Source of the DNA: an uncultured Blastocatellia bacterium
GTDB taxonomy: Bacteria > Acidobacteriota > Blastocatellia > HR10
DNA: 64,000 nt
Direction: 5' to 3'
NCBI GenBank assembly: GCA_937934295.1
Contig: CALHAI010000013.1
Coordinates: 5,865 to 69,864 of the forward strand
Under the pieces are notes generated by a model that saw only the letters and a list, made by a program, of their open reading frames with translations, was not told where the DNA came from and made no database searches. Each line of letters opens with the position of its first letter. Position 1 is the stretch's first letter. Below are positions 38,660 through 51,410 of the stretch, one piece after another. A program made the position numbers and the translations under genes.

Positions 38660-39135
38660 AAGACCTCACCCACGTGGACGCCGAAGGGCGAATTCAAATG
38701 GTGGACGTGAGCGCTAAGCCTGTGACCGAACGGCGGGCTGTAGCGAGCGGCTTCGTGCGCCTGCGCAAGGAGACGCTGCGGGCCATCCGAGAGCGGCGGA
38801 CGCCGAAGGGCGATCCGCTGGAGGCAGCTCGATTAGCGGGGATTCTCGCGGCCAAGCGGACGGCGGAGTTGATCCCCCTTTGTCATCCGCTTCCGCTCAC
38901 GCACATCGATGTCGAAGCTGAGGTGAAAGCGGACGGCATCGCCCTTACGGCCTCGGTGGCGACGACGGCACAAACGGGCGTGGAGATGGAAGCGCTTGTG
39001 GCTGTGAGCATCGCCGCGCTCACACTCTACGATATGTGCAAGGCCATAGATCGAGAGATGACGATCACGGATATTCGTTTGGAGCAAAAGACTGGGGGGA
39101 CGTCGGGGGATTTCGTGCGAGAGGAGGACGGGTGA
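38656..39135 (+). CDS. moaC: cyclic pyranopterin monophosphate synthase accessory protein MoaC
   Basis: [27 protein letters not shown]...[38 protein letters not shown] at 38656 overlaps the moeA TGA (GTGA). Confidence 0.85.
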
Positions 39136-39197
39136 GTCGGTCTCTCATTCGAGAGCCGAAGCGTGATCTTCCGCGAGATCGCTTTGGGGCGGAGAAG

Positions 39198-40853
39198 ATG
39201 AAGCGAGCTCTTTTGAAAGATGCGAGCGCTCTTGTCCGAAGGGTTGCCGTGCTCGCCGTGTCGAGTCAGATGCTCTTTGTATGGGGCATCGGCGCGGGAT
39301 GGGGGCAACAGACGACGCCGCCGACGATCGATCTCGGCACGCCGGGTGCCGTTCACGTCACCCTCAACGGCGCGTCGAGTGGCGATCGCTTGGAGATCCT
39401 TCGCGTGGCCGATGTCAATGGCGATGGCGTGGACGACGTCGTGGTCGCCGGGCGATTGGCCAACGGGCCGGAGGGGTTTCGTTTCGATGCCGGCGGCGTG
39501 TTCATCGTGTTGGGAGGGGTGGACTTGATTCGCGGGACGATGCGGGATCTGCATGATCGCCCTGACATCATCATCCATGGGGCGGATGCGAATGACCGCT
39601 TGGGCACGTCGCTCGCCGTCGGCGACGTCAATGGGGATGGTATTGCGGATATCATTGTGGGCGCTCCGGGAGCCGATGGACCCGGAGAGCTGCGATCGGG
39701 CGCCGGAGAGATTTACGTTGTCTTCGGCGGTCCGCATTTGGCGCGCGGAACCATACGTGACATGGCGGGCTTGGTCGCCCCCGGGGCCGACGTGGTGATC
39801 TTCGGGCCGGAACCCACAGCTTCACTGGGCGCCTCACTCGCCGTCGGCGATGTCAATGGGGATGGCGTCGCGGACATTCTCGCGGGAGCGGCGACGTCGT
39901 CTCAGCCGCGAGGTGACCGCCTCTTTGCCGGGGCGCTCTACGTGATCTTCGGTGCGCGCGAGTGGATGAGTGGTCTGGCGCGCGACCTGGCCGATCCGGC
40001 GAGCGCGGACGTGACGATCTTTGGCCCTAGCTCTCTCAGCTTCTTCGGATTTCAGATCGCCGTTGGGGATGTGAACGGGGATGGCGTGCCTGATATTGTG
40101 ACGAGCGCGCCGCTGGCCGATGGTCCGCAGAACGAGCGATCAGAAGCGGGAGAGGTCTACGTGATCTTCGGGGGGGTTCACTTGGTTCGGGGAACTGTGC
40201 GCGATGTCGCACCGGGATCGGCTGCCGGATCCGATGTCGTGATCTTCGGCGCGGCGGCTCAGGATCTGCTCGGATATACGCTGCTTCTGGCCGATGTGAC
40301 CGGAGATGGCGTCCTCGATCTCATCGTCGGCGCACTCCAGGCGGATGGGCCGGAACGAAAGCGACCGGATGCGGGCGAAGTGTATATCTTCTTCGGGGGG
40401 GTAACGTTCGCCTCCTCGGCCACGCGCGATGTCGCGGGGCTTGTGGCGCCGGCGCCGGATGTGGTGCTCTATGGGGCTGAACCCTTCGATGAGTTCGGAG
40501 CGGCACTCGCCGCCGCGGACCTGGATGGGAATGGCGTTGCGGATCTCGTGGTCGGCGCTCCTGGGGGGGATGCCAAGGAGAATCAGAAGATTGACGCCGG
40601 CGAGGTCTATGTCTTCTTCGATCGGAGCATAGCTCAAAGTGGCACGGTGCGCGATGCCGGAAACCCGGACTTCATCCTCTTCGGCGCGAATAACGGAGAG
40701 CGCACGGGGAGTTGCATCGCCTTCGGCGATGTCAATGGAGATGACGTTCTCGATCTCTTGGTGAGCGCTCCAGAAGGAGGCGGCGTTCGCCTGAGCGCTG
40801 GATCGGTGTACATCGTCTTCGGCCCCCTTGTGCCCCTTGGGGGAGGAGGATGA
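39198..40853 (+). CDS. secreted integrin-alpha-like FG-GAP repeat protein (about 9 repeats)
   Basis: Repeated GDVNGDG(V/I)(A/D)D..VGAPGADGP....AGE(I/V)YV(I/V)FGG units. GGAGAAG RBS before the ATG at 39198. Signal peptide. Confidence 0.65.
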   Translation: MKRALLKDASALVRRVAVLAVSSQMLFVWGIGAGWGQQTTPPTIDLGTPGAVHVTLNGASSGDRLEILRVADVNGDGVDDVVVAGRLANGPEGFRFDAGGVFIVLGGVDLIRGTMRDLHDRPDIIIHGADANDRLGTSLAVGDVNGDGIADIIVGAPGADGPGELRSGAGEIYVVFGGPHLARGTIRDMAGLVAPGADVVIFGPEPTASLGASLAVGDVNGDGVADILAGAATSSQPRGDRLFAGALYVIFGAREWMSGLARDLADPASADVTIFGPSSLSFFGFQIAVGDVNGDGVPDIVTSAPLADGPQNERSEAGEVYVIFGGVHLVRGTVRDVAPGSAAGSDVVIFGAAAQDLLGYTLLLADVTGDGVLDLIVGALQADGPERKRPDAGEVYIFFGGVTFASSATRDVAGLVAPAPDVVLYGAEPFDEFGAALAAADLDGNGVADLVVGAPGGDAKENQKIDAGEVYVFFDRSIAQSGTVRDAGNPDFILFGANNGERTGSCIAFGDVNGDDVLDLLVSAPEGGGVRLSAGSVYIVFGPLVPLGGGG

Positions 40854-40894
40854 GCGCACGCGGCGCCCGCAGATTCCCACCGAGGAGGAGCCAT

Positions 40895-43036
40895 ATGCTC
40901 GAGCGAATGGGGAGACGCGCGAAGATGCTCGCGCTCATCAGCGGGTATCTCGTGGGGCTCTCTCACGGTGTCCTGCCGCTTCGCGCGCAGGAGACGCCAC
41001 CGTTGATCATCGAGACGATTGCCGGAGGGGGGATCGGCGAGGGCGAGAGCGCCCGCGATGCCACATTGGCGTCGCCCTGGGCGCTTTTGGTGACCGAGGA
41101 GGGGGAACTGCTGATTGCGGACACGGAGAACCATCGCATTCGCAAGGTCGATCGCGATGGGATGATTGCGACGATTGCCGGGACGGGAGTCAACGGATTC
41201 GGTGGCGATGATGGGCCGCCGGATAAGGCACAGCTCTGGTCGCCGCGCGGTCTGGCCTTCGATCCAGATGGGAATGTGCTTATCGCCGATACGGCGAATC
41301 ACCGGATTCGTCGGATCGAGCGTAGGGCTGAGGCGCTCGTCATCACGACGATCGCGGGGACAGGATCTGCAGGCTTCGGAGGGGATGGAGGATCGGCCAA
41401 GAACGCGCAGCTCAGCAGTCCGCGCGGCCTCGCCGTGGATGCAGCCGGTAACATCTACATCGCCGATACGGGCAATCACCGGATTCGGAAGATCGATGGG
41501 AGCGGGAACATCTCGACGGTCGCCGGCGATGGGACGCGTGGATTCGGAGGCGATGGGGGAGCAGCGACCTCGGCGCAGTTGAACTCGCCGGTGGCCGTCG
41601 TCGTTTCGCCCTCGGGCGATCTCCTCATCGCCGACGCCAGGAATCATCGCATTCGCAAAGTCTCCGGGGGGACGATCACGACGGTCGCCGGAACGGGCTT
41701 GCCGAGGTTCTCCGGAGATGGGGGGCTGGCCGCGCAAGCGAGTTTGAACGTCCCCATGCATCTGACCTTCGACAGCGCCGGGAACCTCTACGTGGCCGAT
41801 TCCGGGAACAATTGCGTGCGCAAGATTGATCCGTCGGGCATGATCGCGACGGTGGCTGGAAGCCGCGTTCGGGGATTCGCCGGAGATGGTGGGAGCGCGC
41901 TGGAGGCGCGGTTGAACATGCCGGTGGCTCTCGCTCTGGGCACTGATGGGACGATCTTCATCGCCGATGCCGGGAATAATCGGGTGCGCGCTGTTGATCC
42001 GCAGGGAGTGATCCGCACGGTGGCCGGCGGGGGGATCGGGGATGGAGGAGATCCGCGTCAGGCGGTGCTCAATCTGCCCTATGGTGTGGCCGTGGACGCG
42101 CAGGGTCGCCTCTATATCGCCGATACGCAGCATCATCGTATTCGCCGCATGAGGTTGGACGAGGAGAATCCGCGCATCGAGACGATCGCGGGCACGGGCG
42201 TCTCCGGATTCAACGGCGATGATCGGCCGGCCGTCGAAGCGCAATTGAACTTCCCCCGCGGGCTCGCCGTAGATGCGGCCGGGAATCTCTATGTCGCTGA
42301 TATGTTCAACCATCGCGTGCGCAGGATCACTCCGGAGGGCGTGATCACGACGGTCGCCGGATCAGGTCGAGCCGGATTCTCTGGAGATGGGGACTTGGCC
42401 ACGCGCGCCGAGCTGCGATTTCCGCTGGCCATCGCTGTGGACGCGGAGGGGCGGCTCTACATTGCTGATGCCGGGAATAATCGGGTGCGCCGCGTGGATC
42501 TGGACGGCACGATCACGACGATCGCGGGGACGGGGAAGCGCGGATTCGAGGGGGATGACGGACCGGCCATCGCGGCGGCGCTCGATACACCGGCGGCGCT
42601 CGCTTTCGATAAGGATGGTCATCTCCTCATCGCCGATATGGGCAATCATCGCCTGCGGCGCGTGGATCTCTCAACGGGCACGATCGTGACGATCGCGGGG
42701 AAGGGGACGCCAGGCTCCGGCGGAGATGGTGGCGCGGCCAAAGACGCCGAACTGAATACACCGGGTGGGCTCACCGTAGATGGTACGGGAACGATCTACA
42801 TCGCCGATTCCGGGAATCACCGCGTGCGAAAGATCGGCAGTGATGGGAACATCAGCGCGGTGACCGGGACGGGGACCGCCGGATTCGGCGGCGATGGCAC
42901 GCTCGCGAGCGTCGCGACATTGAATTTCCCGACGGGTTTGGCGATCGCCCCGGATGGACACCTGGTGATCGCCGATACGTTCAACCATCGCGTTCGCAAA
43001 TTGCGGCCGCAGCCGCAAGCGCCTTCGGAACCATAG
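40895..43036 (+). CDS. secreted NHL-repeat protein (about 14 NHL repeats, probably two beta-propellers)
   Basis: Fourteen-fold repeat of P.GLA.D..GNLYIADTGNHRIRKID..G.I.TIAGTG. Signal-peptide-like N-terminus. Confidence 0.7.
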   Translation: MLERMGRRAKMLALISGYLVGLSHGVLPLRAQETPPLIIETIAGGGIGEGESARDATLASPWALLVTEEGELLIADTENHRIRKVDRDGMIATIAGTGVNGFGGDDGPPDKAQLWSPRGLAFDPDGNVLIADTANHRIRRIERRAEALVITTIAGTGSAGFGGDGGSAKNAQLSSPRGLAVDAAGNIYIADTGNHRIRKIDGSGNISTVAGDGTRGFGGDGGAATSAQLNSPVAVVVSPSGDLLIADARNHRIRKVSGGTITTVAGTGLPRFSGDGGLAAQASLNVPMHLTFDSAGNLYVADSGNNCVRKIDPSGMIATVAGSRVRGFAGDGGSALEARLNMPVALALGTDGTIFIADAGNNRVRAVDPQGVIRTVAGGGIGDGGDPRQAVLNLPYGVAVDAQGRLYIADTQHHRIRRMRLDEENPRIETIAGTGVSGFNGDDRPAVEAQLNFPRGLAVDAAGNLYVADMFNHRVRRITPEGVITTVAGSGRAGFSGDGDLATRAELRFPLAIAVDAEGRLYIADAGNNRVRRVDLDGTITTIAGTGKRGFEGDDGPAIAAALDTPAALAFDKDGHLLIADMGNHRLRRVDLSTGTIVTIAGKGTPGSGGDGGAAKDAELNTPGGLTVDGTGTIYIADSGNHRVRKIGSDGNISAVTGTGTAGFGGDGTLASVATLNFPTGLAIAPDGHLVIADTFNHRVRKLRPQPQAPSEP

Positions 43037-43059: not shown

Positions 43060-44379
43060 TCAGCGCCTCCTTGGCTGATGCGCGCGCCGTAGCTCTTCTG
43101 CCATCGCCCGAATCTCCGTGAGCGCGCGCTTCATCTCGCTCCATCCGTACCAGAGTGCGTAATCGGGATTCGCGTGAAACGTCCCCTGAAATGTTCGCAT
43201 GCGATGCTCCAGATGCATGACGAAGAGCTTCTGTTCGATTGGCGTCGGCGCGTCGTGAAAGGCGAGGAGATCGGGGAAGGGATACGCATAGTGGGCCGGT
43301 TTTTTCAGGATGCCGTCCTTGTAGAGATCGGCGACGATGCGGATGGCTTCGGCCAGCAGGCGATCGGCCTCTCGGATCATCTGATCACCCTTCTCCAACT
43401 CGGCGCGCGCGAAGTGGAGCGAATGGCACTGATTGCAGATTCGGAGCATGCGCTCGCGTTCCTTCTGCCAGTCCTCTTGTGTGAGACGCGCGACATCCGC
43501 CTGCTTCACCAGGTCGAAGCGGGCCGTCGGCTTGCCCTCGGGATCGAGCACGCCGAGCGCCTGTAAGATCGTCGTCTGATCGGCTGCCCACTGTTTATCT
43601 TCCGGCAGCGGCAGCCGCACAGCGAGAAATCCCCAGGCCGTGCGCACGGCATGATTCCCCTCGGGCATATGACAGGTCTGGCAGGTGGGCGCGGCGACCG
43701 TCTCCGGCAGCGTCTTGTTCTGCTTCAGGAGGTATCGGACGCCATGCTTGGAGGACGAGTACATCTCCCACTGCGGATGATCGAAGCCCATGTGGCAGGT
43801 CTGACAGGCCTGCGGTTGGCGCGCTTCCTCCGTCGAGAAGAGATGTCGCGTGTGGCAGGCGTCGCAGGAGGCAACGCCGAAGCCTGCGCCTTGACGCTTC
43901 AACTCGCGGATCTCGGCCTCTGTCTTCAGTCCGATCTTATGACACCCTCCGCAGCCTTTCATCCCTTCAGTCAACGCCATCGGGAGCCAGTGCGTCGTCG
44001 GCATCGCCTTCATCGCCGCCCATCCGAGGGCGTGCTTACCCTGCTTGAATTGTTCGACCTGCACCTCATGGCACAGCGCGCATGTCTCCGGAGTCGGGAT
44101 GCGCACCTTCTCCACATCTTCGGCTGACATGTGCTCCTCGCCGTGGCAGACGGCGCAATCAATCCCGTTCCGACTGTGCTTGCTCAACTGCCAATCCGAG
44201 ACGATGTTGGGCGTGACCTTTTTATGGCATTCGACGCAGGCCGCCCCTTGTCGGGAACGCGCTTCGGAGAAGCGGGGGAGCCATCGCGGATCCCCTTGAG
44301 GCCCGCGCTCGGCTTCGCCAAAGGCGAGGATCATCCCGAACACGAACGCGATTCCAAGTATCCGTCGAAATCCAGACAT
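43060..44379 (-). CDS. octaheme c-type cytochrome, HAO-like/multiheme nitrogen-cycle family (exact family unresolved)
   Basis: Signal peptide plus eight CxxCH motifs (CVECH, CAVCH, CALCH, CGGCH, CDACH, CQTCH, CQTCH, CNQCH) in about 440 aa. AAGGAGGAG RBS. Confidence 0.6.
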   Translation of the reverse strand: MSGFRRILGIAFVFGMILAFGEAERGPQGDPRWLPRFSEARSRQGAACVECHKKVTPNIVSDWQLSKHSRNGIDCAVCHGEEHMSAEDVEKVRIPTPETCALCHEVQVEQFKQGKHALGWAAMKAMPTTHWLPMALTEGMKGCGGCHKIGLKTEAEIRELKRQGAGFGVASCDACHTRHLFSTEEARQPQACQTCHMGFDHPQWEMYSSSKHGVRYLLKQNKTLPETVAAPTCQTCHMPEGNHAVRTAWGFLAVRLPLPEDKQWAADQTTILQALGVLDPEGKPTARFDLVKQADVARLTQEDWQKERERMLRICNQCHSLHFARAELEKGDQMIREADRLLAEAIRIVADLYKDGILKKPAHYAYPFPDLLAFHDAPTPIEQKLFVMHLEHRMRTFQGTFHANPDYALWYGWSEMKRALTEIRAMAEELRRAHQPRRR

Positions 44380-44613
44380 GATGGGCTCCTCCTTACGCGG
44401 GACATTTTATGATGCAGTGCGAGGATGCGTCAATCCTTCGGAGCGCGTGAAGCGTCGGCGCCATCAGGGGACCGAAAGCTTCCTCCTTCCCGGCCTTCAG
44501 ATCGTCTACCAATCCCCTCTCTTCAATGAGCATCACAGCGAGGGAAGTCTATTTGCGAGAGAGGCGTGAGGCAAGGTGCGGCACACCTTTCATCCGTCGT
44601 GAAGAGCTGGCGT

Positions 44614-46026
44614 TTAACGGGAACGCGCGCGCAGATACCGATCGATGCCCGCCGCGGCATCGCGGCCATCTCGCAGAGCCGTCGCCAGAAGGTCCGCGCC
44701 TCGCACGACATCGCCTCCGGCGAAGACGCCAGGCCAGGAGGTCATCTTGTCCGCATCCACTTCGTACGTTCCCCAGGGTGTGCGCTTGAGTCGCGGATCC
44801 TCGAGCGAGACGGGCGATGGATCGAATCCGAAGGCGATGATCACCATATCCGCCTCCAGCTCGAAGTTGCTGCCGGGAATCGGGATGGGCTTTCGGCGTC
44901 CCTCCTCATCCGGCTCCCCCAACTCCATGCGGATACACTCGACCTTACGCACCCACCCGTTCTCATCGCCGATGAAGCGAATGGGATTCGTGAGCCAGAG
45001 GAATTCCACGCCCTCTTCTTTCGCGGCTTTCACCTCGCGGCGGCTGCCCGGCATATTCTCCTCGTCCCGGCGATAGGCGCAGATGACGCGCGCCGCCCCC
45101 AACCGCCGCGCCGTGCGCAACGAGTCCATCGCCGTATCGCCACCGCCGAGGACGACGACCGTCTTCCCGGTGAGATCATCCCGTCTCCAGTCACCGGAGG
45201 GGAGAAATCGCGGCTCCACATTATTCCGAATGAGGAAGGGGAGCGCATCGTGAATCCCCTTGAGTTCGATCCCCTCGATCTTCGGACGCTTAGGGACCGT
45301 CGCTCCCGTGCCCAAGAAAATGGCCGAATAGCCTTGCGCGAAGAGGTCATCCAGAGTCACGTGCTCCCCGATTCGGGTCCCGCAGACGAATTCGACGCCC
45401 AACGCGCGCAAGTATGCGATGCGGCGCTCGACGACCCACTTCTCCAGCTTGAAGCCGGGGATGCCATAGATGAGCAATCCGCCGGGGAAGGGCCACGCCT
45501 CGAAGACGGTGACCTGATATCCCCGCTTGACGAGTTCCTCAGCGCACGCGAGTCCTGCCGGACCGGCGCCCACGATGGCCACGCGCTCGCCGGTCGCTGG
45601 CGCGACCTCCGGACACGGAATGCCGCCGAGCTGTCGAAAGGCATACTCGTTGATGAACCATTCGATGGCACCAATGGCCACGGGTTCATATTTGATCCCC
45701 AGCACGCACGCGCCTTCGCAGAGCCGATCCTGCGGACAGATTCGCCCGCAAATCTCCGGCATGTTACTCGTCTGGCGCGAGCATTCGGCCGCTTCGAGAA
45801 ACCGCCCTTCGGCCGTCAGCACGAGCCAGTCGCGGATGCGATTGTTGAGCGGACAGGCCTGTTCGCACGCCGGATTCTTGCACTTAATGCATCGCGCGGC
45901 TTCACTCTGGGCCTCCTCAGCCGTGAGTTCAAGCGAGACTGCCAGAAAATCGCGAATCCGCTCCTCAGGCGGGCGCTTCCGCGGCTCGATCCGAGGTCGC
46001 TTGGCCGGAGCAACTCTTCCCGACAT
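44614..46026 (-). CDS. GltD/NfnB/SudA-family NAD(P)H oxidoreductase (FeS plus FAD/NAD(P) binding; glutamate synthase small-subunit-like)
   Basis: CIKCKNPACEQACPLNNRIRDW...CGRICPQDRLCEGACVL is an N-terminal FeS region. RVAIVGAGPAGLACAEEL and VVVLGGGDTAMD are dinucleotide folds. GAGGAGAGGGGA RBS before the ATG at 46026. Confidence 0.7.
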   Translation of the reverse strand: MSGRVAPAKRPRIEPRKRPPEERIRDFLAVSLELTAEEAQSEAARCIKCKNPACEQACPLNNRIRDWLVLTAEGRFLEAAECSRQTSNMPEICGRICPQDRLCEGACVLGIKYEPVAIGAIEWFINEYAFRQLGGIPCPEVAPATGERVAIVGAGPAGLACAEELVKRGYQVTVFEAWPFPGGLLIYGIPGFKLEKWVVERRIAYLRALGVEFVCGTRIGEHVTLDDLFAQGYSAIFLGTGATVPKRPKIEGIELKGIHDALPFLIRNNVEPRFLPSGDWRRDDLTGKTVVVLGGGDTAMDSLRTARRLGAARVICAYRRDEENMPGSRREVKAAKEEGVEFLWLTNPIRFIGDENGWVRKVECIRMELGEPDEEGRRKPIPIPGSNFELEADMVIIAFGFDPSPVSLEDPRLKRTPWGTYEVDADKMTSWPGVFAGGDVVRGADLLATALRDGRDAAAGIDRYLRARSR

Positions 46027-46199
46027 CGTTCCCCTCTCCTCATCCGAGGATTCTCCCATCTTGGGATCACAGGCATGGGGTAGCAAATCTCATGCCATCT
46101 CCCATGCCGCGCCAAACGCCCATGCGCTCAATCGGTTCTTCGTTGACCGGGGGAAGTCCGATTACACCTGGCGCGGCAAATGCCTCAACCGGTGCGCGA

Positions 46200-46496: not shown

Positions 46497-47671
46497 ATGG
46501 CGCGAAGAACGATGCCAAAGCTCTTTTTGGGAGGTTTTCTCCTTTGGGGCGTGGCGATCGTCGGGTGCCGTCGTTCGGAGATGTCCGAGCCAGTCGTCTT
46601 TCCCGCAGGACGCTTCACTTCAGCGCGGCAGTGCGGCACCTGTCACCGGGACATCTATGCAGCGTGGCGTGGTTCGCAACACGCGCGAGCCGCCGAGAAC
46701 CCCATCTTCCGTGAGTCCTATGAAGAGGCGGCGAAGATCGCCGGAGATGCGGTGGCCCGACTCTGCTTCATGTGTCATGCGCCGACGGTCGTGCTCACGA
46801 GCGATTACGCCCTCGCGCAGGAGGTGACGCGCGAAGGCGTCACGTGCGATTTCTGCCATTCCTTGACCGGGACGGACTTGGAGCGGCGCGAGCACCCGTT
46901 CCTGCTTGATGTTGGGGCGACCAAATACGGCCCATTCGCGATGCCGCTTCGACCGGACATCGCGTGGCCTTCTCCGAATTCCACCTCAGCTCGTTCCAGT
47001 GTGCGGGATGTCACGAGTATCGAAACGCGCACGGTGTGCCCATCCTCTCGACCTATTCGGAGTGGGAGCAGTATCGGCAGCGCGGGGGGGATAAGGAGTG
47101 TCAGCACTGTCACATGCCCCAGGTCCTGGCCAACATCGTGGATCCAAAGGTGAAACGGGTGCGCGGCGCCTTTGTGAATCTCCACGCGATGCCCGGGGGA
47201 CATGCTCGCGATCAACTCGTGCGCGCACTGGAGATGCGGATCATGGAGGCGCACCGCACGCCGCGCGGATTGCGCGTGAAGATTCGACTCCGAAACGTCG
47301 GTGCTGGCCATGCCGTGCCCTCCGGCAGTCCGATGCGAAAAGTGATCTTGCGCGTCGAGGTCGTGACCGAAAGCGGGCGACGCGTTCAGCAGGAGCGCAT
47401 CTATCAGCGCGTCGTGTTGGACAAACGAGGTGCGGCGATTCGTCGAGATAGCCTCCTCTTCACCGAGGCGCGAGCGATCGCCCGCGATACGCGATTGGCG
47501 CCGGCCGAAGAGCGCGTGGAGGAGTTCCTGCTGCCCATCTCGGTCGATGAGAACCTCACCCTCACGGCGGCGCTCATCTACCTCTACTCACCGCACGAGC
47601 GTCCGGAGACCGAGACGCGCATTGAGTTTCTCTCCGAGAAGAAGGAGTTGTTCTCTCGATGGGTTCGGTGA
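46497..47671 (+). CDS. pentaheme c-type cytochrome lipoprotein, interrupted by an apparent -1 frameshift near 46950-46966
   Basis: Frame A (46497-46947) has a lipobox-like AIVGC and the motifs CGTCH, CFMCH and CDFCH. Frame B (from 46964) continues with CAGCH and CQHCH. Frame A becomes Ser/Arg-rich junk downstream of the junction, which lies in a G-run (gcgtggcc). Confidence 0.5.
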
Positions 47672-47753
47672 GTCGTTCCTTCAGAGGCTTCATATTGGGG
47701 AGGATGCAGCGTGAGCCCCGTCACGCATGCGTTCCCCTTTGAGGAGGGAGACT

Positions 47754-48539
47754 ATGCGTCTTGTTGCGAGACAAAGCGCGTTTCGTTTTTTGCCCATGCT
47801 GCTTATGGGGATATTGGGCGGGATGCTCCCACAAGCCGCTTTGGCGCAGGAGATGATGGGGCGTCCCGTAATGGGGAAGGAGACCGTCGCCACGGGACCT
47901 GATGGGAGGATCTACGTCGTGGCTTCTCCGGCACAGCACCAGCAGTGGATGGGCCCCGCATTCGGGCGCACAGTGCTTTTCGCTTTGGACCCAACGACGT
48001 TTCGCGTTCTGTGGCGATATGTCCTTGAGGATGAAGACCTCGTCGCCTCTCGTCCGGTTGTAGGCGCGGATGGCACGGTCTATCTCACCATGTCCGAGAC
48101 GATGGAGTTCGGTCCGCCGCTGGATTCCCAGATGGCCTTGCGGAACGCTCGACTTTTGGCCGTTCGAGGGGGAACGCTCAAATGGGCTTATGAGTTCGAT
48201 GCGCCGTTCGCCTCTGATCCTGTACTCAGCTCGGAGGGGTTGATCTTTGTGACCACCAGTGCTGTTGGTCCAGTTGGGATGCCAGGGCCCTGGATGTTCG
48301 CACGCTCATCGTTTCTCGCCCTTGAGGATCGCGAGACTTCGCCCGTCGTACGCGCGCGTCTTGATCTTGGCTCGCTCGCTGTGTCCGCTCCCGTTGTCCA
48401 TTCGCGTCCGATGCGGTCATGGGTGGTCTACGTGACGGGAGAGGGGACCGGCAGGGGGCCGGGGATGGGGATGGGTCAGGGGACGGTGCTGTTTATCATT
48501 GGCCCGGACTTCTCCGTGACGCGCGTGTCCTTACGCTGA
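47754..48539 (+). CDS. secreted PQQ-like (BamB-type) beta-propeller repeat protein
   Basis: Signal peptide MRLVARQSAFRFLPMLLMGILGGMLPQAALA. Repeats of G.DG.IYV...LFALD..T..VLWRY type. GAGGAGGGAG RBS. Confidence 0.45.
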   Translation: MRLVARQSAFRFLPMLLMGILGGMLPQAALAQEMMGRPVMGKETVATGPDGRIYVVASPAQHQQWMGPAFGRTVLFALDPTTFRVLWRYVLEDEDLVASRPVVGADGTVYLTMSETMEFGPPLDSQMALRNARLLAVRGGTLKWAYEFDAPFASDPVLSSEGLIFVTTSAVGPVGMPGPWMFARSSFLALEDRETSPVVRARLDLGSLAVSAPVVHSRPMRSWVVYVTGEGTGRGPGMGMGQGTVLFIIGPDFSVTRVSLR

Positions 48540-48566
48540 GGCGCTGGGGAGGAAGGGAGGCACCAT

Positions 48567-49004
48567 ATGCCATTGTGGAGCGAGCAGCGTCGGAGACTCT
48601 TGAATCTCCTCTTGGGGACGAGCGTGGGGGCGACGCTGGTGGCCATCTTCTATCCGATCCTCAAGTTCATGATCCCGCCTGAGGTCATCGAGGCGACGCA
48701 GACGAGCGTCGTCGCTGGGCGCGTGAACGAACTGCCGCCGAATTCGGGGAAGATCTTCAAGTTCGGGAACAAGCCTGGCCTTCTGGTGCGCACGCCGACG
48801 GGGGAGTACAAGGCCTTCTCAGCCGTCTGCACGCACCTGGATTGCATCGTGCAGTATCGGCCGGACATGCAGCTGATCTGGTGCGCGTGCCATAATGGCC
48901 AGTACAGCTTAAGCGGGAAGAACATCGCCGGCCCGCCCCCGCGCCCCTTAGAGGAGTACGTCGTCAATATTCGCGGAGAGGAGATCGTCGTCTCTAAGGC
49001 GTGA
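48567..49004 (+). CDS. Rieske [2Fe-2S] subunit of a cytochrome bc/b6f-type complex
   Basis: N-terminal TM helix. CTHLDC...(15 aa)...CACHNGQY matches Rieske box I/II (CxH...CxxH). Confidence 0.85.
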
Positions 49005-49063
49005 TCTCGCCAGCGTGACTGGAGGATCCACCCCTCGTGCTCAAGGGGGAGAGAGCTGACGTT

Positions 49064-50137
<1,074 letters not shown>

Positions 50138-50144
50138 AGGGAGG

Positions 50145-51410
50145 TTGGCGATGGCGCGCGCGCGATGGGCTGTCTTGATCCTGACGATCGCCACGCTTGT
50201 TGGATCCGGCGCTGATTGGACGCGCGCCGAGCAGAAGAAGGATTCCTGCGTCGAATGTCACGCGGCTTTGGAAGGATCGCTCGCGGCTCCCGTCGAGGCG
50301 ATGCGAGAGGATATCCACCGAGCGCGCGGGTTTTCCTGCGCCGATTGTCACGGCGGGGATCCTTCGCGCGATGACCCTCTGGAGTCTATGGACCCGAAGA
50401 AGGGGTTCCTCGCACGGCCGTCACCGCGCGCGATCCCAGCGCTCTGTGGCCGCTGCCACAGTGATGCCGAATTCATGAAACGATACAATCCCGCCCTGCG
50501 CGTAGATCAAGAGCGGGAGTACTTCACGAGCGTTCACGGGAAGCGGCTTCGAGCCGGAGATACGCGCGTGGCGACCTGCACGAGCTGTCACGGGGCGCAT
50601 GGGATTCGCCCCGCCCACCACCCGCTCTCTCCCGTCTACTCCCTCCGCGTGGCCGAGACGTGCGCGCGCTGTCATGCTGATGTCGCGTACATGAAGGGAT
50701 ATCGAATCCCCTCCGACCAGTACGAGCGGTACAAGCGGAGCGTCCACGCGCGTGCGCTCTACGAGCGGCAGGACCTCTCGGCGCCGACCTGCAACGATTG
50801 TCATGGGAATCACGGAGCGGTGCCGCCCGGCGTCGCCTCGGTCGCGCATGTCTGCGGGCAATGTCATGTGCGGCAGTCCACGCTCTTTCAAGCGAGCCCG
50901 CATAAGGCGGCTTTCGATGTCATGCGATTGGCCGAATGCGTGTACTGCCACGGGAATCACGATGTCCCCTCTCCCACGGACGAAATGATTGGGACGGGAG
51001 AGAAATCCGTGTGCCTCTCCTGCCATCCGCCGGGAGATGTGGGGTATCAGGCGGCCGAGCGCATGCGCGCCATGTTGGACGAGCTCTCGCGCAATCTGGA
51101 GCGTGCCCAGGCGATCTTGGACCGTGCCGAACGGGCGGGCATGGAGGTGAGCCGGGCGAAGTTCGAACTGAACGAAGCGCGCGACGCGCTCACGCATGCG
51201 CGCGTGCTCATCCATGCCTTCTCAGTGAAGGAGTTGGAGAACGTCATCCGCCCGGGCCTGGAGGTCGCCCAGCGTGGGTATCACGCTGGGGAGCGTGCCC
51301 TCGCGGAGTTGAACTATCGGCGCAAGGGACTCGCCGTGTCGCTGCTGTTCATCCTCTTCCTCGCCTTCCTGCTCTATTTGAAGGTTCGAGAGATTGAAGG
51401 AACCAGATGA
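50145..51410 (+). CDS. nonaheme c-type cytochrome with a C-terminal transmembrane anchor
   Basis: Signal peptide. Nine CxxCH motifs (CVECH, CADCH, CGRCH, CTSCH, CARCH, CNDCH, CGQCH, CVYCH, CLSCH). C-terminal helix [17 protein letters not shown]. Immediately downstream of Rieske/cyt b. Confidence 0.7.

What the first reader, a model, noticed from the sequence alone, without database searches (positions are those of the whole stretch)
43060..44379. Compact octaheme cytochrome c (8 CxxCH in about 440 aa) with a signal peptide
Eight canonical haem-binding motifs are packed into a short secreted protein, which gives an HAO/ONR-like haem density. It is encoded directly downstream of the NAD(P)H-oxidoreductase-like gene. 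Whether it carries the Tyr cross-link of oxidative HAOs cannot be judged by eye. A short reductive-type HAO paralogue would be functionally interesting, for example in nitrite, hydroxylamine or NO reduction.
Basis: partly seen in the sequence, partly recalled or inferred. Interest (0 to 1): 0.6.

Follow-up and report, generated by a model that had tools for sequence, protein, structure and literature searches.

The report
Tyrosine-less HAO-family octahaem reductase
This gene really does encode a compact, exported eight-haem cytochrome of the hydroxylamine-oxidoreductase family that lacks the tyrosine oxidative members need, so it is most likely a nitrite or hydroxylamine reductase of a type already known from many anaerobes.

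Summary
ORF 43060-44379 (minus strand, 439 aa) has eight CxxCH motifs, no other cysteine and an N-terminal signal-like segment.

It belongs to the HAO family. A profile search of solved structures gives E 7e-60 to 1e-44 for Kustc0458/HAOr, KsHAO, NeHAO, HDH and IhOCC. ONR scores 2.5e-4, NrfA about 1e-5, MccA 8e-3 and OTR does not appear. An AlphaFold model (pLDDT 86) matches only HAO-family folds.

The cross-linking Tyr of NeHAO and KsHAO aligns with Leu409 or Trp410, not Tyr. The Asp-His catalytic pair is kept.

The protein sits in a very large and very conserved clade: about 415 aa, 74-94% identity across more than 15 phylum labels, with saturated synonymous sites. The clade carries a 19-residue insertion next to the catalytic haem motif.

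The GltD-like neighbour is a lineage-specific insertion and is absent from a syntenic relative. The conserved partner is a divergently encoded pentahaem / Rieske / cytochrome b6-like / nonahaem cluster, which forms one same-strand array with the gene in Cytophagia MAGs.

Likely function: a quinol-fed periplasmic nitrite (or NH2OH/NO) reductase. This is a new member of a known kind and of moderate-to-low interest.

The parts
43060..44379 (-). HAO-family octahaem cytochrome c gene (439 aa), tyrosine-less (reductive) type
44314..44379 (-). Residues 1-22, MSGFRRILGIAFVFGMILAFGE: Sec-type signal peptide or N-terminal anchor
   Evidence: Hydrophobicity scan and translation. Homologues are not conserved before about residue 45. 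Cleavage is inferred, not tested.
44224..44238 (-). Haem 1 motif CVECH (C48-H52)
   Evidence: Invariant in alignments A1 and A2.
44143..44157 (-). Haem 2 motif CAVCH (C75-H79)
44068..44082 (-). Haem 3 motif CALCH (C100-H104)
43939..43953 (-). Haem 4 motif CGGCH (C143-H147), the predicted catalytic haem (P460 position in oxidative HAOs)
   Evidence: It aligns with the fourth motif of Kustc0458, KsHAO and NeHAO. The catalytic role is inferred from family knowledge (PMC8042395).
43870..43938 (-). Residues 148-170, KIGLKTEAEIRELKRQGAGFGVA. They contain a clade-specific 19-residue insertion between haem motifs 4 and 5 (Cys-to-Cys spacing 29, against 10 in NeHAO and Kustc0458).
   Evidence: Gaps appear in all four solved HAOs shown in the alignments (Kustc0458, KsHAO, Brocadia fulgida HAO, NeHAO). 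Spacing table. K148, G150, K152, G166, F167 and G168 are invariant in the clade.
43852..43866 (-). Haem 5 motif CDACH (C172-H176), followed by the HAO hallmark TRHxFS
43792..43806 (-). Haem 6 motif CQTCH (C192-H196). The haem 5 to 6 spacing is 20, as in all 45 family representatives and the solved HAOs.
43777..43782 (-). Asp200-His201, equivalent to the distal catalytic pair Asp267-His268 of NeHAO
   Evidence: CHMGFDHPQWEMY aligns with CHSGVDHNNWEAY (NeHAO), CHMGIDHDEWAMY (KsHAO) and CHMGPDHPDAESY (Kustc0458). Invariant in the clade.
43669..43683 (-). Haem 7 motif CQTCH (C233-H237)
43423..43437 (-). Haem 8 motif CNQCH (C315-H319)
43147..43155 (-). Leu409-Trp410-Tyr411: the position of the cross-linking Tyr of oxidative HAOs is Leu or Trp here
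   Evidence: HMMER places NeHAO Y467 and KsHAO Y415 on L409. Counting His+8 gives W410 (H459 to Y467 in NeHAO, H407 to Y415 in KsHAO, H402 to W410 here). Kustc0458 has Trp at both positions (WWW). Y407 and Y411 are invariant flanking residues.
44404..44433 (-). Sigma-70-like promoter match TTGACG-18-TAAAAT (10 of 12), upstream of the HAO-like gene
   Evidence: This is a consensus match only: 1 was found and 0.6 expected in shuffles.
44386..44394 (-). Shine-Dalgarno sequence AAGGAGGAG
44614..46086 (-). GltD/NfnB-type NAD(P)H-FAD-2x[4Fe-4S] oxidoreductase gene, upstream neighbour. It is a lineage-specific insertion and probably not a functional partner.
   Evidence: Pfam Fer4_20 + Pyr_redox_2 and TIGR01318 at 495 bits. 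PDB GltD 8e-121 and NfnB 2.5e-116. Absent from the syntenic L083/L084.
46497..47671 (+). Pentahaem cytochrome c gene, first gene of the divergent Rieske/cytochrome b cluster. In the window it is frameshifted by a 1-nt deletion near 46934.
   Evidence: The gene is an intact 391 aa in the ENA copy L001. Present in L002 and L083/L084.
47727..48539 (+). 270-aa protein of unknown function with a hydrophobic N-terminus (weak PQQ_2/BamB-like match)
   Evidence: Present in L001 and L002; no match in L083/L084.
48567..49004 (+). Rieske [2Fe-2S] subunit with a PetC-type transmembrane anchor
49037..50137 (+). Cytochrome b (fused b6-like and subunit-IV-like parts, 366 aa)
   Evidence: The best PDB matches are cytochrome b6, 2.4e-58.
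50145..51410 (+). Nonahaem cytochrome c with a signal peptide and a C-terminal transmembrane helix. It stands in the place of cytochrome c1/f and is the likely electron donor to the HAO-like protein.
   Evidence: Nine CxxCH motifs and a C-terminal hydrophobic helix. No solved relative. It follows HAO-Rieske-cyt b on the same strand in L004, L005 and L008.

Best explanation
The gene encodes a Sec-exported periplasmic octahaem cytochrome c of the hydroxylamine-oxidoreductase (HAO) family, of the tyrosine-less reductive type.

By analogy with solved and characterised relatives, it should form a non-covalent trimer. Seven bis-His haems would wire electrons to a five-coordinate haem 4 (C143GGCH), where Asp200/His201 supply protons.

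Its most likely reaction is reduction of nitrite, and also of hydroxylamine and NO. Six-electron reduction to ammonium, as in the Campylobacterota epsilon-Hao enzymes, is the most probable outcome. One-electron reduction to NO, as in anammox HAOr, is the alternative.

In this genome the electrons most likely come from the menaquinol pool through the divergently encoded Rieske / cytochrome b6-like complex. The haem-c subunits of that complex are a membrane-anchored nonahaem and a pentahaem cytochrome.

Shown here: family membership, the haem motif set, absence of Tyr at the cross-link position, a conserved Asp-His pair, and recurrent linkage to the Rieske/cyt b/nonahaem genes. Inferred: trimer, substrate, product and electron route.

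The confidence of 0.6 is for the whole statement. It is about 0.95 for HAO-family membership, about 0.85 for the Tyr-less reductive type, about 0.6 for a nitrogen-oxide reductase function and about 0.45 for electron supply through the Rieske/cytochrome b complex.
For: Family membership:
- Pfam PF13447 scores 3e-32.
- phmmer against PDB gives Kustc0458/HAOr 1.4e-33 and NeHAO 1e-25.
- The profile search gives the eight best distinct PDB sequences as HAO family (7e-60 to 1e-44), and the next hit at 1.7e-10.
- The AF2 model has pLDDT 85.9 and pTM 0.82. Its top 11 Foldseek hits are all HAO family, with E 6e-13 to 1e-9 and TM 0.55-0.64. NrfA follows at E about 0.6.

Haem chemistry:
- There are eight CxxCH motifs and no spare cysteine.
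- The haem 5-6 block CxxCHTRHxFSxxEARQPxxCxxCH keeps the family-wide spacing of 20.
- Seven widely conserved non-motif histidines (68, 83, 116, 179, 212, 243, 402) fit seven bis-His haems.
- The Asp200-His201 pair is conserved.

Reductive type:
- The cross-link Tyr of two oxidative HAOs aligns to Leu409/Trp410.
- Characterised Tyr-less members are reductases: HAOr (nitrite to NO) and epsilon-Hao (nitrite and NH2OH reduction), both from PMC8042395.

Electron supply:
- HAO-Rieske-cyt b-nonahaem form one same-strand array in three Cytophagia MAGs.
- They lie within 10 kb in three further lineages.
- They are divergently adjacent in the window lineage and in a relative at 85% identity.
- The same idea was proposed for Caldithrix abyssi (PMC5317091).

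Other neighbours elsewhere fit a periplasmic N-oxide reductase: NapC/NirT-type cytochromes, NorB-like COX1, hemerythrin-DUF438-PAS, and ResB/CcsA haem lyases.
Against: - No member of this tight clade could be tied to an experiment with the tools available.
- The identity to solved HAOs is only 20-25%.
- No nitrate reductase, hcp or other nitrogen-cycle gene was seen in the parts of the window that were annotated. Roughly 19-37 kb of the window was not annotated.
- In about 70 of the 80 related loci the gene has no Rieske/cyt b neighbour and the context is very variable.
- Two invariant tyrosines (Y407, Y411) flank the cross-link position. The trimer geometry could not be modelled, so a cross-link is not strictly excluded.
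- Three extra invariant histidines (130, 375, 392) leave the coordination of haem 4 formally open.
- The pentahaem gene of the partner cluster is frameshifted in this window.
Confidence: 0.6

Rival explanations
1. It is an oxidative hydroxylamine (or hydrazine) dehydrogenase, as the automatic name 'hydroxylamine dehydrogenase' given by JGI to several close homologues suggests.
For: It belongs to the HAO family and keeps the Asp-His pair. JGI names appear on P0002, P0018, P0025, P0085 and P0096. Two invariant Tyr residues lie within two positions of the cross-link column.
Against: The cross-link column is Leu409/Trp410, not Tyr, in alignments to both NeHAO and KsHAO. The NCBIfam HDH model scores 95 bits against a cut-off of 900. 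The best solved match is the reductive Kustc0458. The hosts are mostly anaerobic lineages, and no amo or hzs genes were seen. Tyr-less members that have been tested show negligible NH2OH oxidation (PMC8042395).
Confidence: 0.04
2. It is mainly a nitrosative-stress detoxification enzyme that removes NO, hydroxylamine or nitrite in the periplasm, rather than a respiratory terminal reductase.
For: In most loci it is a solitary gene with its own promoter-like site. Recurrent neighbours include hemerythrin-DUF438-PAS, NorB-like COX1 and desulfoferrodoxin. HSP20 and SOD genes lie in the same region of the window contig. No nitrate reductase was seen near it here.
Against: Linkage to a dedicated Rieske/cyt b/nonahaem quinol-oxidising module in several lineages points to a high-flux respiratory role. 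The chemistry is the same as in the best explanation, so this differs in physiology and not in mechanism.
Confidence: 0.2
3. It reduces a non-nitrogen substrate (sulfite, tetrathionate, polysulfide, metal oxides), or it is simply an electron-transfer hub for extracellular electron transfer.
For: Nine loci have a large (about 715 aa) multihaem cytochrome upstream, whose representative carries an MtrC/MtrF-like domain. Others have deca- or polyhaem cytochromes nearby. The physiological substrate of the archaeal relative IhOCC (4qo5) is not settled (own knowledge).
Against: The invariant Asp-His distal pair and the open-haem-4 architecture are those of the nitrogen-oxide-converting HAOs. OTR and MccA features (Lys-ligated haem, CX15CH, extra Cys) are absent.
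Confidence: 0.1
4. Together with the upstream GltD-like NAD(P)H oxidoreductase and the Rieske/cyt b cluster, it forms an anammox R/b-3-like (Kuste4569-4574) bifurcating complex. That complex would couple quinol oxidation to nitrite reduction and NAD(P)+ reduction.
For: The gene inventory is the same within 8.4 kb: HAO-like octahaem, NAD(P) oxidoreductase of the GltD/Nfn type, b6-like cytochrome b, Rieske and multihaem cytochromes. This compares with the description of Kuste4569-4574 in bioRxiv 10.1101/2025.06.25.661457. The GltD-like protein matches the NfnABC subunit used there as a structural homologue (9bov/9bp5, 7e-81).
Against: The GltD-like gene is absent from the syntenic relative L083/L084, which keeps both the HAO-like gene and the Rieske cluster. 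It is also absent from 78 of the 80 related loci. It is an ordinary 470-490 aa GltD-family protein without the extra iron-sulfur (polyferredoxin-like) part described for Kuste4570. Cytochrome b is fused here and split in Kuenenia.
Confidence: 0.06

Closest known systems
Kustc0458 (HAOr) of Kuenenia stuttgartiensis, PDB 6h5l; nitrite-to-NO reductase lacking the Tyr cross-link (PMC8042395)
   Same: It is the best solved match by sequence (1.4e-33), profile (7e-60) and fold (E 5.9e-13, TM 0.59). Both have eight CxxCH motifs in the same order, the Asp-His pair, no Tyr at the cross-link position, and the same loop length between the conserved His and Gly (10 residues).
   Different: Identity is only 25%. 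Kustc0458 is 517 aa with long loops between haems 1-2 and in the C-terminal domain that are missing here. It lacks the 19-residue insertion after haem motif 4. It works with a dihaem partner (Kustc0457), and no such gene is adjacent here.
Epsilon-Hao of Campylobacterota (Haase et al. 2017, cited in PMC8042395 and PMC8940962); ammonium-forming nitrite/hydroxylamine reductases
   Same: Both are short Tyr-less HAO-family octahaem proteins in non-nitrifiers, proposed to replace NrfA. A Trp (W410) sits at His+8, where epsilon-Hao is reported to have Trp.
   Different: The reported Met eight residues before that Trp is His402 here. The usual epsilon-Hao partner gene haoC (NapC/NrfH type; own recollection of Haase et al.) is not present, and a Rieske/cyt b cluster is the neighbour instead. 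Sequence identity to a characterised epsilon-Hao could not be measured, because no such sequence was available to the tools.
Cabys_2556 'epsilon-Hao' of Caldithrix abyssi, encoded beside a Rieske/cytochrome b pair and the Nap cluster (PMC5317091)
   Same: Both are Tyr-less HAO-like octahaem proteins next to Rieske and cytochrome b genes. The authors proposed the same electron route (quinol to Rieske/cyt b to multihaem to HAO-like). A Calditrichota MAG carries a 76% identical member of the present clade (L068).
   Different: No nap genes were seen here. The Cabys_2556 sequence itself was not compared. That work is also genome inference only.
Oxidative HAO/HDH (N. europaea HAO 1fgj/4fas, KsHAO 4n4j, HDH 6hif)
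   Same: Same fold and haem order, the haem 5-6 block and the Asp-His pair.
   Different: There is no cross-linking Tyr. The protein is 60-140 residues shorter. There is an insertion after haem motif 4. The HDH model scores far below its cut-off.
Anammox Rieske/cytochrome b complex R/b-3 (Kuste4569-4574)
   Same: Both have a b6-like cytochrome b, a Rieske protein and multihaem c subunits in place of cytochrome f/c1, with an HAO-like octahaem protein and an NAD(P) oxidoreductase gene in the same neighbourhood.
   Different: The NAD(P) oxidoreductase gene here is a plain GltD-type gene that is not conserved with the cluster. Cytochrome b is fused. The multihaem subunits differ (nona- and pentahaem). 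There is no evidence of a physical complex.

Membership tests
HAO family (octahaem, Pfam PF13447) | Eight c-type haem motifs in the conserved order, with significant sequence or profile similarity to solved HAOs | tested here: met
   Eight CxxCH motifs. PF13447 3e-32. PDB profile hits 7e-60 to 1e-44, restricted to the HAO family.
HAO family (octahaem, Pfam PF13447) | HAO fold | tested here: met
   For the AF2 model of pLDDT 85.9, the top 11 Foldseek PDB hits are all HAO family, with TM 0.55-0.64. NrfA and ONR score E > 0.5.
HAO family (octahaem, Pfam PF13447) | Conserved haem 5-6 block (CxxCHTRHxFS...CxxCH, spacing 20) followed by the distal Asp-His pair | tested here: met
   C172DACHTRHLFSTEEARQPQAC192QTCHMGFD200H201.
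HAO family (octahaem, Pfam PF13447) | Seven bis-His haems plus one five-coordinate catalytic haem; homotrimer with a haem ring | not testable with these tools
   Seven widely conserved extra histidines are compatible with this. Coordination and oligomeric state need haem-loaded multimer modelling or experiment.
Oxidative HAO/HDH (P460 enzymes) | Tyr that cross-links to haem 4 of the neighbouring subunit | tested here: not met
   NeHAO Y467 and KsHAO Y415 align with L409 (HMMER) or W410 (His+8 rule). Leu409 is at least 90% conserved and Trp410 is invariant in the clade.
Hydrazine dehydrogenase (NCBIfam NF052343) | Score above the curated equivalog cut-off | tested here: not met
   95.5 bits against a cut-off of 900.
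Epsilon-Hao subfamily | No cross-link Tyr, with Trp in its place | tested here: inconclusive
   Tyr is absent. Trp410 occupies the position only under the His+8 count, while HMMER places Leu409 there. The criterion is taken from PMC8940962.
Epsilon-Hao subfamily | Conserved Met eight residues before that Trp | tested here: not met
   Residue 402 is His, invariant in all 45 sequences of A2.
Epsilon-Hao subfamily | haoC (NapC/NrfH-type tetrahaem) gene upstream of haoA | tested here: not met
   Upstream is a GltD-like gene. No NapC/NrfH-type gene lies within 10 kb. NapC/NirT-type cytochromes occur near the gene in 6 other loci. The criterion comes from own recollection of Haase et al. 2017.
Epsilon-Hao subfamily | Close sequence relationship to the four characterised enzymes | not testable with these tools
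   No Campylobacterota sequence could be retrieved. Cluster look-ups gave no such names.
Octahaem nitrite reductase (ONR/TvNiR) and NrfA | CxxCK catalytic haem motif and an NrfA-like catalytic domain | tested here: not met
   There is no CxxCK, since all Cys lie in CxxCH. Profile E 2.5e-4 (ONR) and about 1e-5 (NrfA) over short haem stretches only. Foldseek E > 0.5.
Octahaem tetrathionate reductase (OTR) | Similarity to the OTR fold or sequence | tested here: not met
   OTR is not listed at E <= 0.01 in the profile search, nor among the 50 best Foldseek hits listed.
MccA sulfite reductase | CX15CH haem motif and Cu-binding cysteines | tested here: not met
   There are no cysteines outside the CxxCH motifs. 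Profile E 7.8e-3.
Anammox R/b-3-type complex (Kuste4569-4574) | NAD(P) oxidoreductase subunit conserved with the Rieske/cyt b/HAO-like genes | tested here: not met
   The GltD-like gene is absent from the syntenic L083/L084 and from 78 of the 80 related loci.

The most novel reading that the evidence does not exclude
Outside anammox bacteria, a b6-type Rieske/cytochrome b complex with nonahaem and pentahaem c subunits is dedicated to an HAO-like nitrite reductase. In this lineage it has recruited a GltD-type NAD(P)H oxidoreductase. The module would then work like the proposed anammox R/b-3 complex, bifurcating quinol electrons between nitrite reduction and NAD(P)+ reduction. A weaker version, without the NAD(P) branch, is an electrogenic quinol:nitrite oxidoreductase supercomplex that conserves more energy than NrfH- or NapC-fed ammonification. 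That weaker version is considerably more likely, at roughly 0.4.
Probability: 0.06. Interest if true: 0.75.

Novelty: new member of a known kind. Interest (0 to 1): 0.3.

Why it matters
Tyrosine-less HAO-family cytochromes are proposed to carry out NrfA-independent nitrite ammonification or NO formation. Automatic annotation still calls them 'hydroxylamine dehydrogenase', which inflates apparent nitrification potential in metagenomes.

This window adds one more member. It also shows three things about the clade:
- The clade is huge and almost frozen in sequence across many phyla.
- It has a defined signature: haem-motif spacing 27-25-43-29-20-41-82, a 19-residue insertion after the catalytic haem motif, and LWYGW in place of the cross-link Tyr.
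- Its one recurrent respiratory partner is a Rieske/cytochrome b6-like complex with a nonahaem subunit.

A biochemical characterisation of one member would therefore annotate thousands of genes. It would also tell whether these organisms retain nitrogen (ammonium) or release NO.

Tried and rejected
1. The first AlphaFold run used 47 close homologues (74-90% identity) and gave a poor model (pLDDT 62, haem core below 50). Its Foldseek ranking still pointed to HAOs but with TM about 0.3. It was replaced by a model from a diverse alignment.
3. Two cluster-name look-ups of 20 family representatives were run to find Campylobacterota epsilon-Hao or Kuenenia sequences. They returned only MAG names: Deltaproteobacteria, Desulfobacteraceae, Dehalococcoidales, Chloroflexota and Euryarchaeota. 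The relation to characterised epsilon-Hao stays untested. Haase et al. 2017 is not held.
4. The idea that the GltD-like gene is a functional partner was rejected on synteny.
5. Recent horizontal transfer was considered as the cause of 75-87% identity across phyla and rejected. Four-fold sites are saturated and GC3 follows each host.
6. Two exact-protein look-ups for other window genes found nothing. The 5' third of the window was annotated by Pfam only in part, and one batch failed on a bad coordinate.
7. A search for an operator-like inverted repeat in the 234-nt spacer found only a weak hairpin after the GltD-like stop codon, with no U-tract.
Full report
**1. Observation**

The ORF at 43060..44379 lies on the minus strand, starts with ATG and is 439 aa long. 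A Shine-Dalgarno sequence AAGGAGGAG lies 6 nt upstream.

It has eight CxxCH motifs, at residues 48, 75, 100, 143, 172, 192, 233 and 315. These motifs contain all 16 cysteines of the protein. In 20,000 shuffles of the same residues the mean was 0.03 motifs and the maximum 2.

The N-terminus MSGFRRILGIAFVFGMILAFGE has the basic start and hydrophobic core of a Sec signal. Homologues align only from about residue 45 onward.

**2. Family**

- Pfam gives PF13447 at 3e-32.
- The best NCBIfam model is hydrazine dehydrogenase, but at 95 bits against a cut-off of 900.
- phmmer against all PDB chains finds only HAO-family proteins at significant E-values. Kustc0458 (6h5l_A) scores 1.4e-33. NeHAO, HDH, IhOCC and KsHAO score 1e-25 to 2e-23.
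- A profile built from 45 diverse family members separates the families more clearly:

| Target | E-value |
|---|---|
| HAO family (eight distinct sequences) | 7e-60 to 1e-44 |
| Next unrelated multihaem protein | 1.7e-10 |
| NrfA | about 1e-5 |
| ONR (TvNiR) | 2.5e-4 |
| MccA | 7.8e-3 |
| OTR | not listed |

- An AlphaFold model from close homologues alone was poor (pLDDT 62). A model from the diverse alignment reached pLDDT 85.9 and pTM 0.82.
- The top 11 Foldseek PDB hits of the better model are all HAO family, with E 6e-13 to 1e-9 and TM 0.55-0.64. NrfA follows at E about 0.6.

**3. Oxidative or reductive type**

In oxidative HAOs a Tyr cross-links to the catalytic haem of the next subunit. 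Tyr-less members that have been tested are reductases (PMC8042395).

HMMER aligns NeHAO Y467 (…HVNPGGWTYTEGW…) and KsHAO Y415 (…HMSMYNQTYGNG…) with Leu409 of the query (…H402ANPDYALWYGW…). In both oxidative enzymes the Tyr is the eighth residue after a conserved His. Counting that way gives Trp410 here. The loop is one residue shorter than in NeHAO and has the same length as in Kustc0458, which reads WWW at these positions.

Neither candidate position is Tyr. Leu409 is at least 90% conserved and Trp410 is invariant in the clade.

One caveat remains. Tyr407 and Tyr411 are invariant flanking residues, and the trimer could not be modelled.

The distal Asp-His pair of HAOs (NeHAO D267/H268) is present as D200/H201. 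Seven widely conserved non-motif histidines (68, 83, 116, 179, 212, 243, 402) fit seven bis-His haems.

**4. What makes it compact, and what is peculiar**

The Cys-to-Cys spacings of the motifs compare as follows:

| Protein | Spacings between successive motifs |
|---|---|
| Query | 27-25-43-29-20-41-82 |
| Kustc0458 | 49-20-50-10-20-51-70 |
| NeHAO | 66-27-57-10-20-51-50 |

The value of 20 between haems 5 and 6 is found in all 45 representatives.

The protein lacks the N-terminal extension and the long loop between haems 1 and 2 that the solved HAOs have. It carries a 19-residue insertion immediately after the catalytic haem-4 motif, within residues 148-170 (KIGLKTEAEIRELKRQGAGFGVA). Lys and Gly residues in it are invariant. 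The insertion is absent from Kustc0458, KsHAO, Brocadia HAO and NeHAO.

**5. The clade**

The word-indexed search found 7,207 homologues. The 120 best are 76-90% identical and mostly 402-445 aa long. Sources name them only "multiheme c-type cytochrome", "cytochrome C" or, at JGI, "hydroxylamine dehydrogenase".

In one genome per species, 499 stretches encode a relative. The best 80 are 70-94% identical. By record titles they come from Acidobacteriota, Bacteroidota, Gemmatimonadota, Nitrospirota, Zixibacteria, Desulfobacterota, Aminicenantes, Calditrichota, Latescibacterota, Verrucomicrobiota, Actinomycetota, Bacillota and others. The closest genome is an Acidobacteriota MAG (94%, L002).

At 50% clustering the wider family has 254 representatives at E <= 1e-30.

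Four-fold degenerate sites between the window gene and the others are saturated (identity 0.18-0.47). GC3 follows each host (0.39-0.90). The window gene itself has the GC3 of its neighbours. The conservation therefore reflects strong purifying selection and not recent transfer.

Four distant representatives (P0142, P0150, P0152, P0153) carry Tyr in the cross-link column.

**6. Context**

The same sequence is on a 147-kb ENA contig.

Upstream on the same strand is a GltD/NfnB-type oxidoreductase gene: TIGR01318 at 495 bits, PDB GltD at 8e-121. The spacer is 234 nt and holds a promoter-like site, TTGACG-18-TAAAAT.

Diverging from that pair is a cluster of five genes:
- a pentahaem cytochrome;
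- a 270-aa gene of unknown function;
- a Rieske protein;
- a cytochrome b whose N-terminal part is most similar to b6 (2.4e-58);
- a nonahaem cytochrome with a C-terminal membrane helix and no solved relative.

A syntenic relative (L083/L084, HAO-like protein 85% identical) has the same NHL, FG-GAP, MoaC and MoeA genes on one side. On the other side it has pentahaem-Rieske-cyt b-nonahaem, RNR and TrmO. It has no GltD-like gene and no 270-aa gene.

Among the 80 genomic loci, GltD-like adjacency occurs only in L002. HAO-Rieske-cyt b-nonahaem form one same-strand array in three Cytophagia MAGs (L004, L005, L008). They lie within about 8 kb in L028, L031 and L076.

Elsewhere the gene is solitary or sits beside other genes:
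- ResB/CcsA haem lyases (11 and 8 loci);
- other multihaem cytochromes, including NapC/NirT-type;
- NorB-like COX1;
- hemerythrin-DUF438-PAS;
- NapH-like proteins;
- succinate dehydrogenase.

The GltD link is thus a lineage-specific insertion. The Rieske/cyt b/nonahaem link is the only recurrent respiratory association.

**7. Mechanism**

Most likely this is a periplasmic trimeric reductase. Electrons enter through the bis-His haem chain and reach haem 4. There nitrite (also NH2OH and NO) is reduced with protons from Asp200/His201.

The product is either ammonium, as in the epsilon-Hao enzymes, or NO, as in HAOr (PMC8042395). Sequence alone cannot decide between them.

In this genome the donor is probably the Rieske/cyt b6-like complex acting through its nonahaem subunit. 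The same route was proposed for Caldithrix abyssi (PMC5317091). It resembles the anammox R/b-3 cluster, Kuste4569-4574 (bioRxiv 10.1101/2025.06.25.661457).

No nitrate reductase or hcp gene was seen in the annotated parts of the window. A detoxification role therefore remains a serious alternative.

**8. Comparison with what is known, and novelty**

Tyr-less hao genes in non-nitrifiers have been described repeatedly: Nautilia and epsilon-Hao, Caldithrix, Deferribacteres (PMC6896113) and hypersaline mats (PMC8940962).

The mat study reports two epsilon-Hao signatures, a Trp at the Tyr position and a Met eight residues before it. Here Trp410 can be read as the former, but the latter position is His402.

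The protein is a clear member of the HAO family. It is not an oxidative HAO or HDH, and not ONR, OTR or MccA. It is not an orthologue of Kustc0458 (25% identity, no dihaem partner). Its relation to the characterised epsilon-Hao enzymes could not be tested.

This is a new member of a known kind. The points worth keeping are the clade's extreme conservation, its insertion next to the catalytic haem, and its link to an unusual Rieske/cytochrome b complex.

Noticed in passing
window 46497-47671 (+), indel near 46934: The pentahaem cytochrome gene is split into two overlapping frames in the window by a single-base deletion (GGCCC-ATTCG against GGCCCGATTCG) relative to the otherwise identical ENA contig, where it is an intact 391-aa gene. 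In the related L083/L084 this gene matches the window's two ORF pieces as several separate stretches and is called there as shorter products (185 and 300 aa), so it may be disrupted there as well (frames were not checked). This could be a sequencing artefact or decay.
   Followed up: partly
window 47727-51410 (+): A Rieske/cytochrome b cluster of unusual make-up. It has a fused b6-like plus subunit-IV-like cytochrome b, no cytochrome c1 or f, and instead a membrane-anchored nonahaem cytochrome with no solved relative, plus a pentahaem cytochrome and a 270-aa protein of unknown function with a hydrophobic N-terminus.
   Followed up: partly
loci L002-L081 compared with window 43060-44379: The HAO-like protein is 70-94% identical (mostly 74-87%) across more than 15 phylum labels, although four-fold degenerate sites are saturated and GC3 ranges from 0.39 to 0.90 with the host. 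It is more conserved than the adjacent cytochrome b (48-70%), Rieske protein (51-67%) and nonahaem cytochrome (36-52%) in the same loci. No explanation was found for such a strong constraint.
   Followed up: partly
proteins P0142, P0150, P0152, P0153 (representatives of the wider short-HAO family): These distant short HAO-like representatives (405-606 aa) carry a Tyr in the alignment column of the cross-link Tyr. They could be compact oxidative HAOs outside nitrifiers and anammox bacteria.
   Followed up: no
loci such as L051 6857-7502 and L061 2881-3693: Dedicated ResB and CcsA (system II cytochrome c synthase) genes lie directly downstream of the HAO-like gene in 11 and 8 of the 80 loci. This recalls the dedicated haem lyases of NrfA and MccA, although every haem motif here is a standard CxxCH.
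   Followed up: partly
window 39036-43036 (+): Two large repeat proteins with hydrophobic N-terminal regions lie next to the gene, one convergent with it: a 605-aa FG-GAP/VCBS-like protein and a 728-aa protein with 12 NHL repeats. Their order is conserved in L002 and L083/L084, together with MoaC and MoeA.
   Followed up: no
L085 10447-13963: In one relative (80% identical HAO-like protein) the gene lies beside phage-integrase fragments and ParE/RelB toxin-antitoxin genes, that is, at the edge of a mobile region.
   Followed up: no
L074 8460-9836 and L020 2646-3848: Two loci carry a second, distant HAO-like paralogue (24-26% identity), directly upstream of the clade member in L074 and about 4 kb upstream in L020.
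   Followed up: no
window about 54.3-54.4 kb region (L082 15999-16613), L083 1-586, L086 10061-10480: A Tll0287-like (PF11845) gene and HSP20 genes recur within a few kb of the HAO-like gene in several relatives, including one without the Rieske cluster (L086).
   Followed up: no
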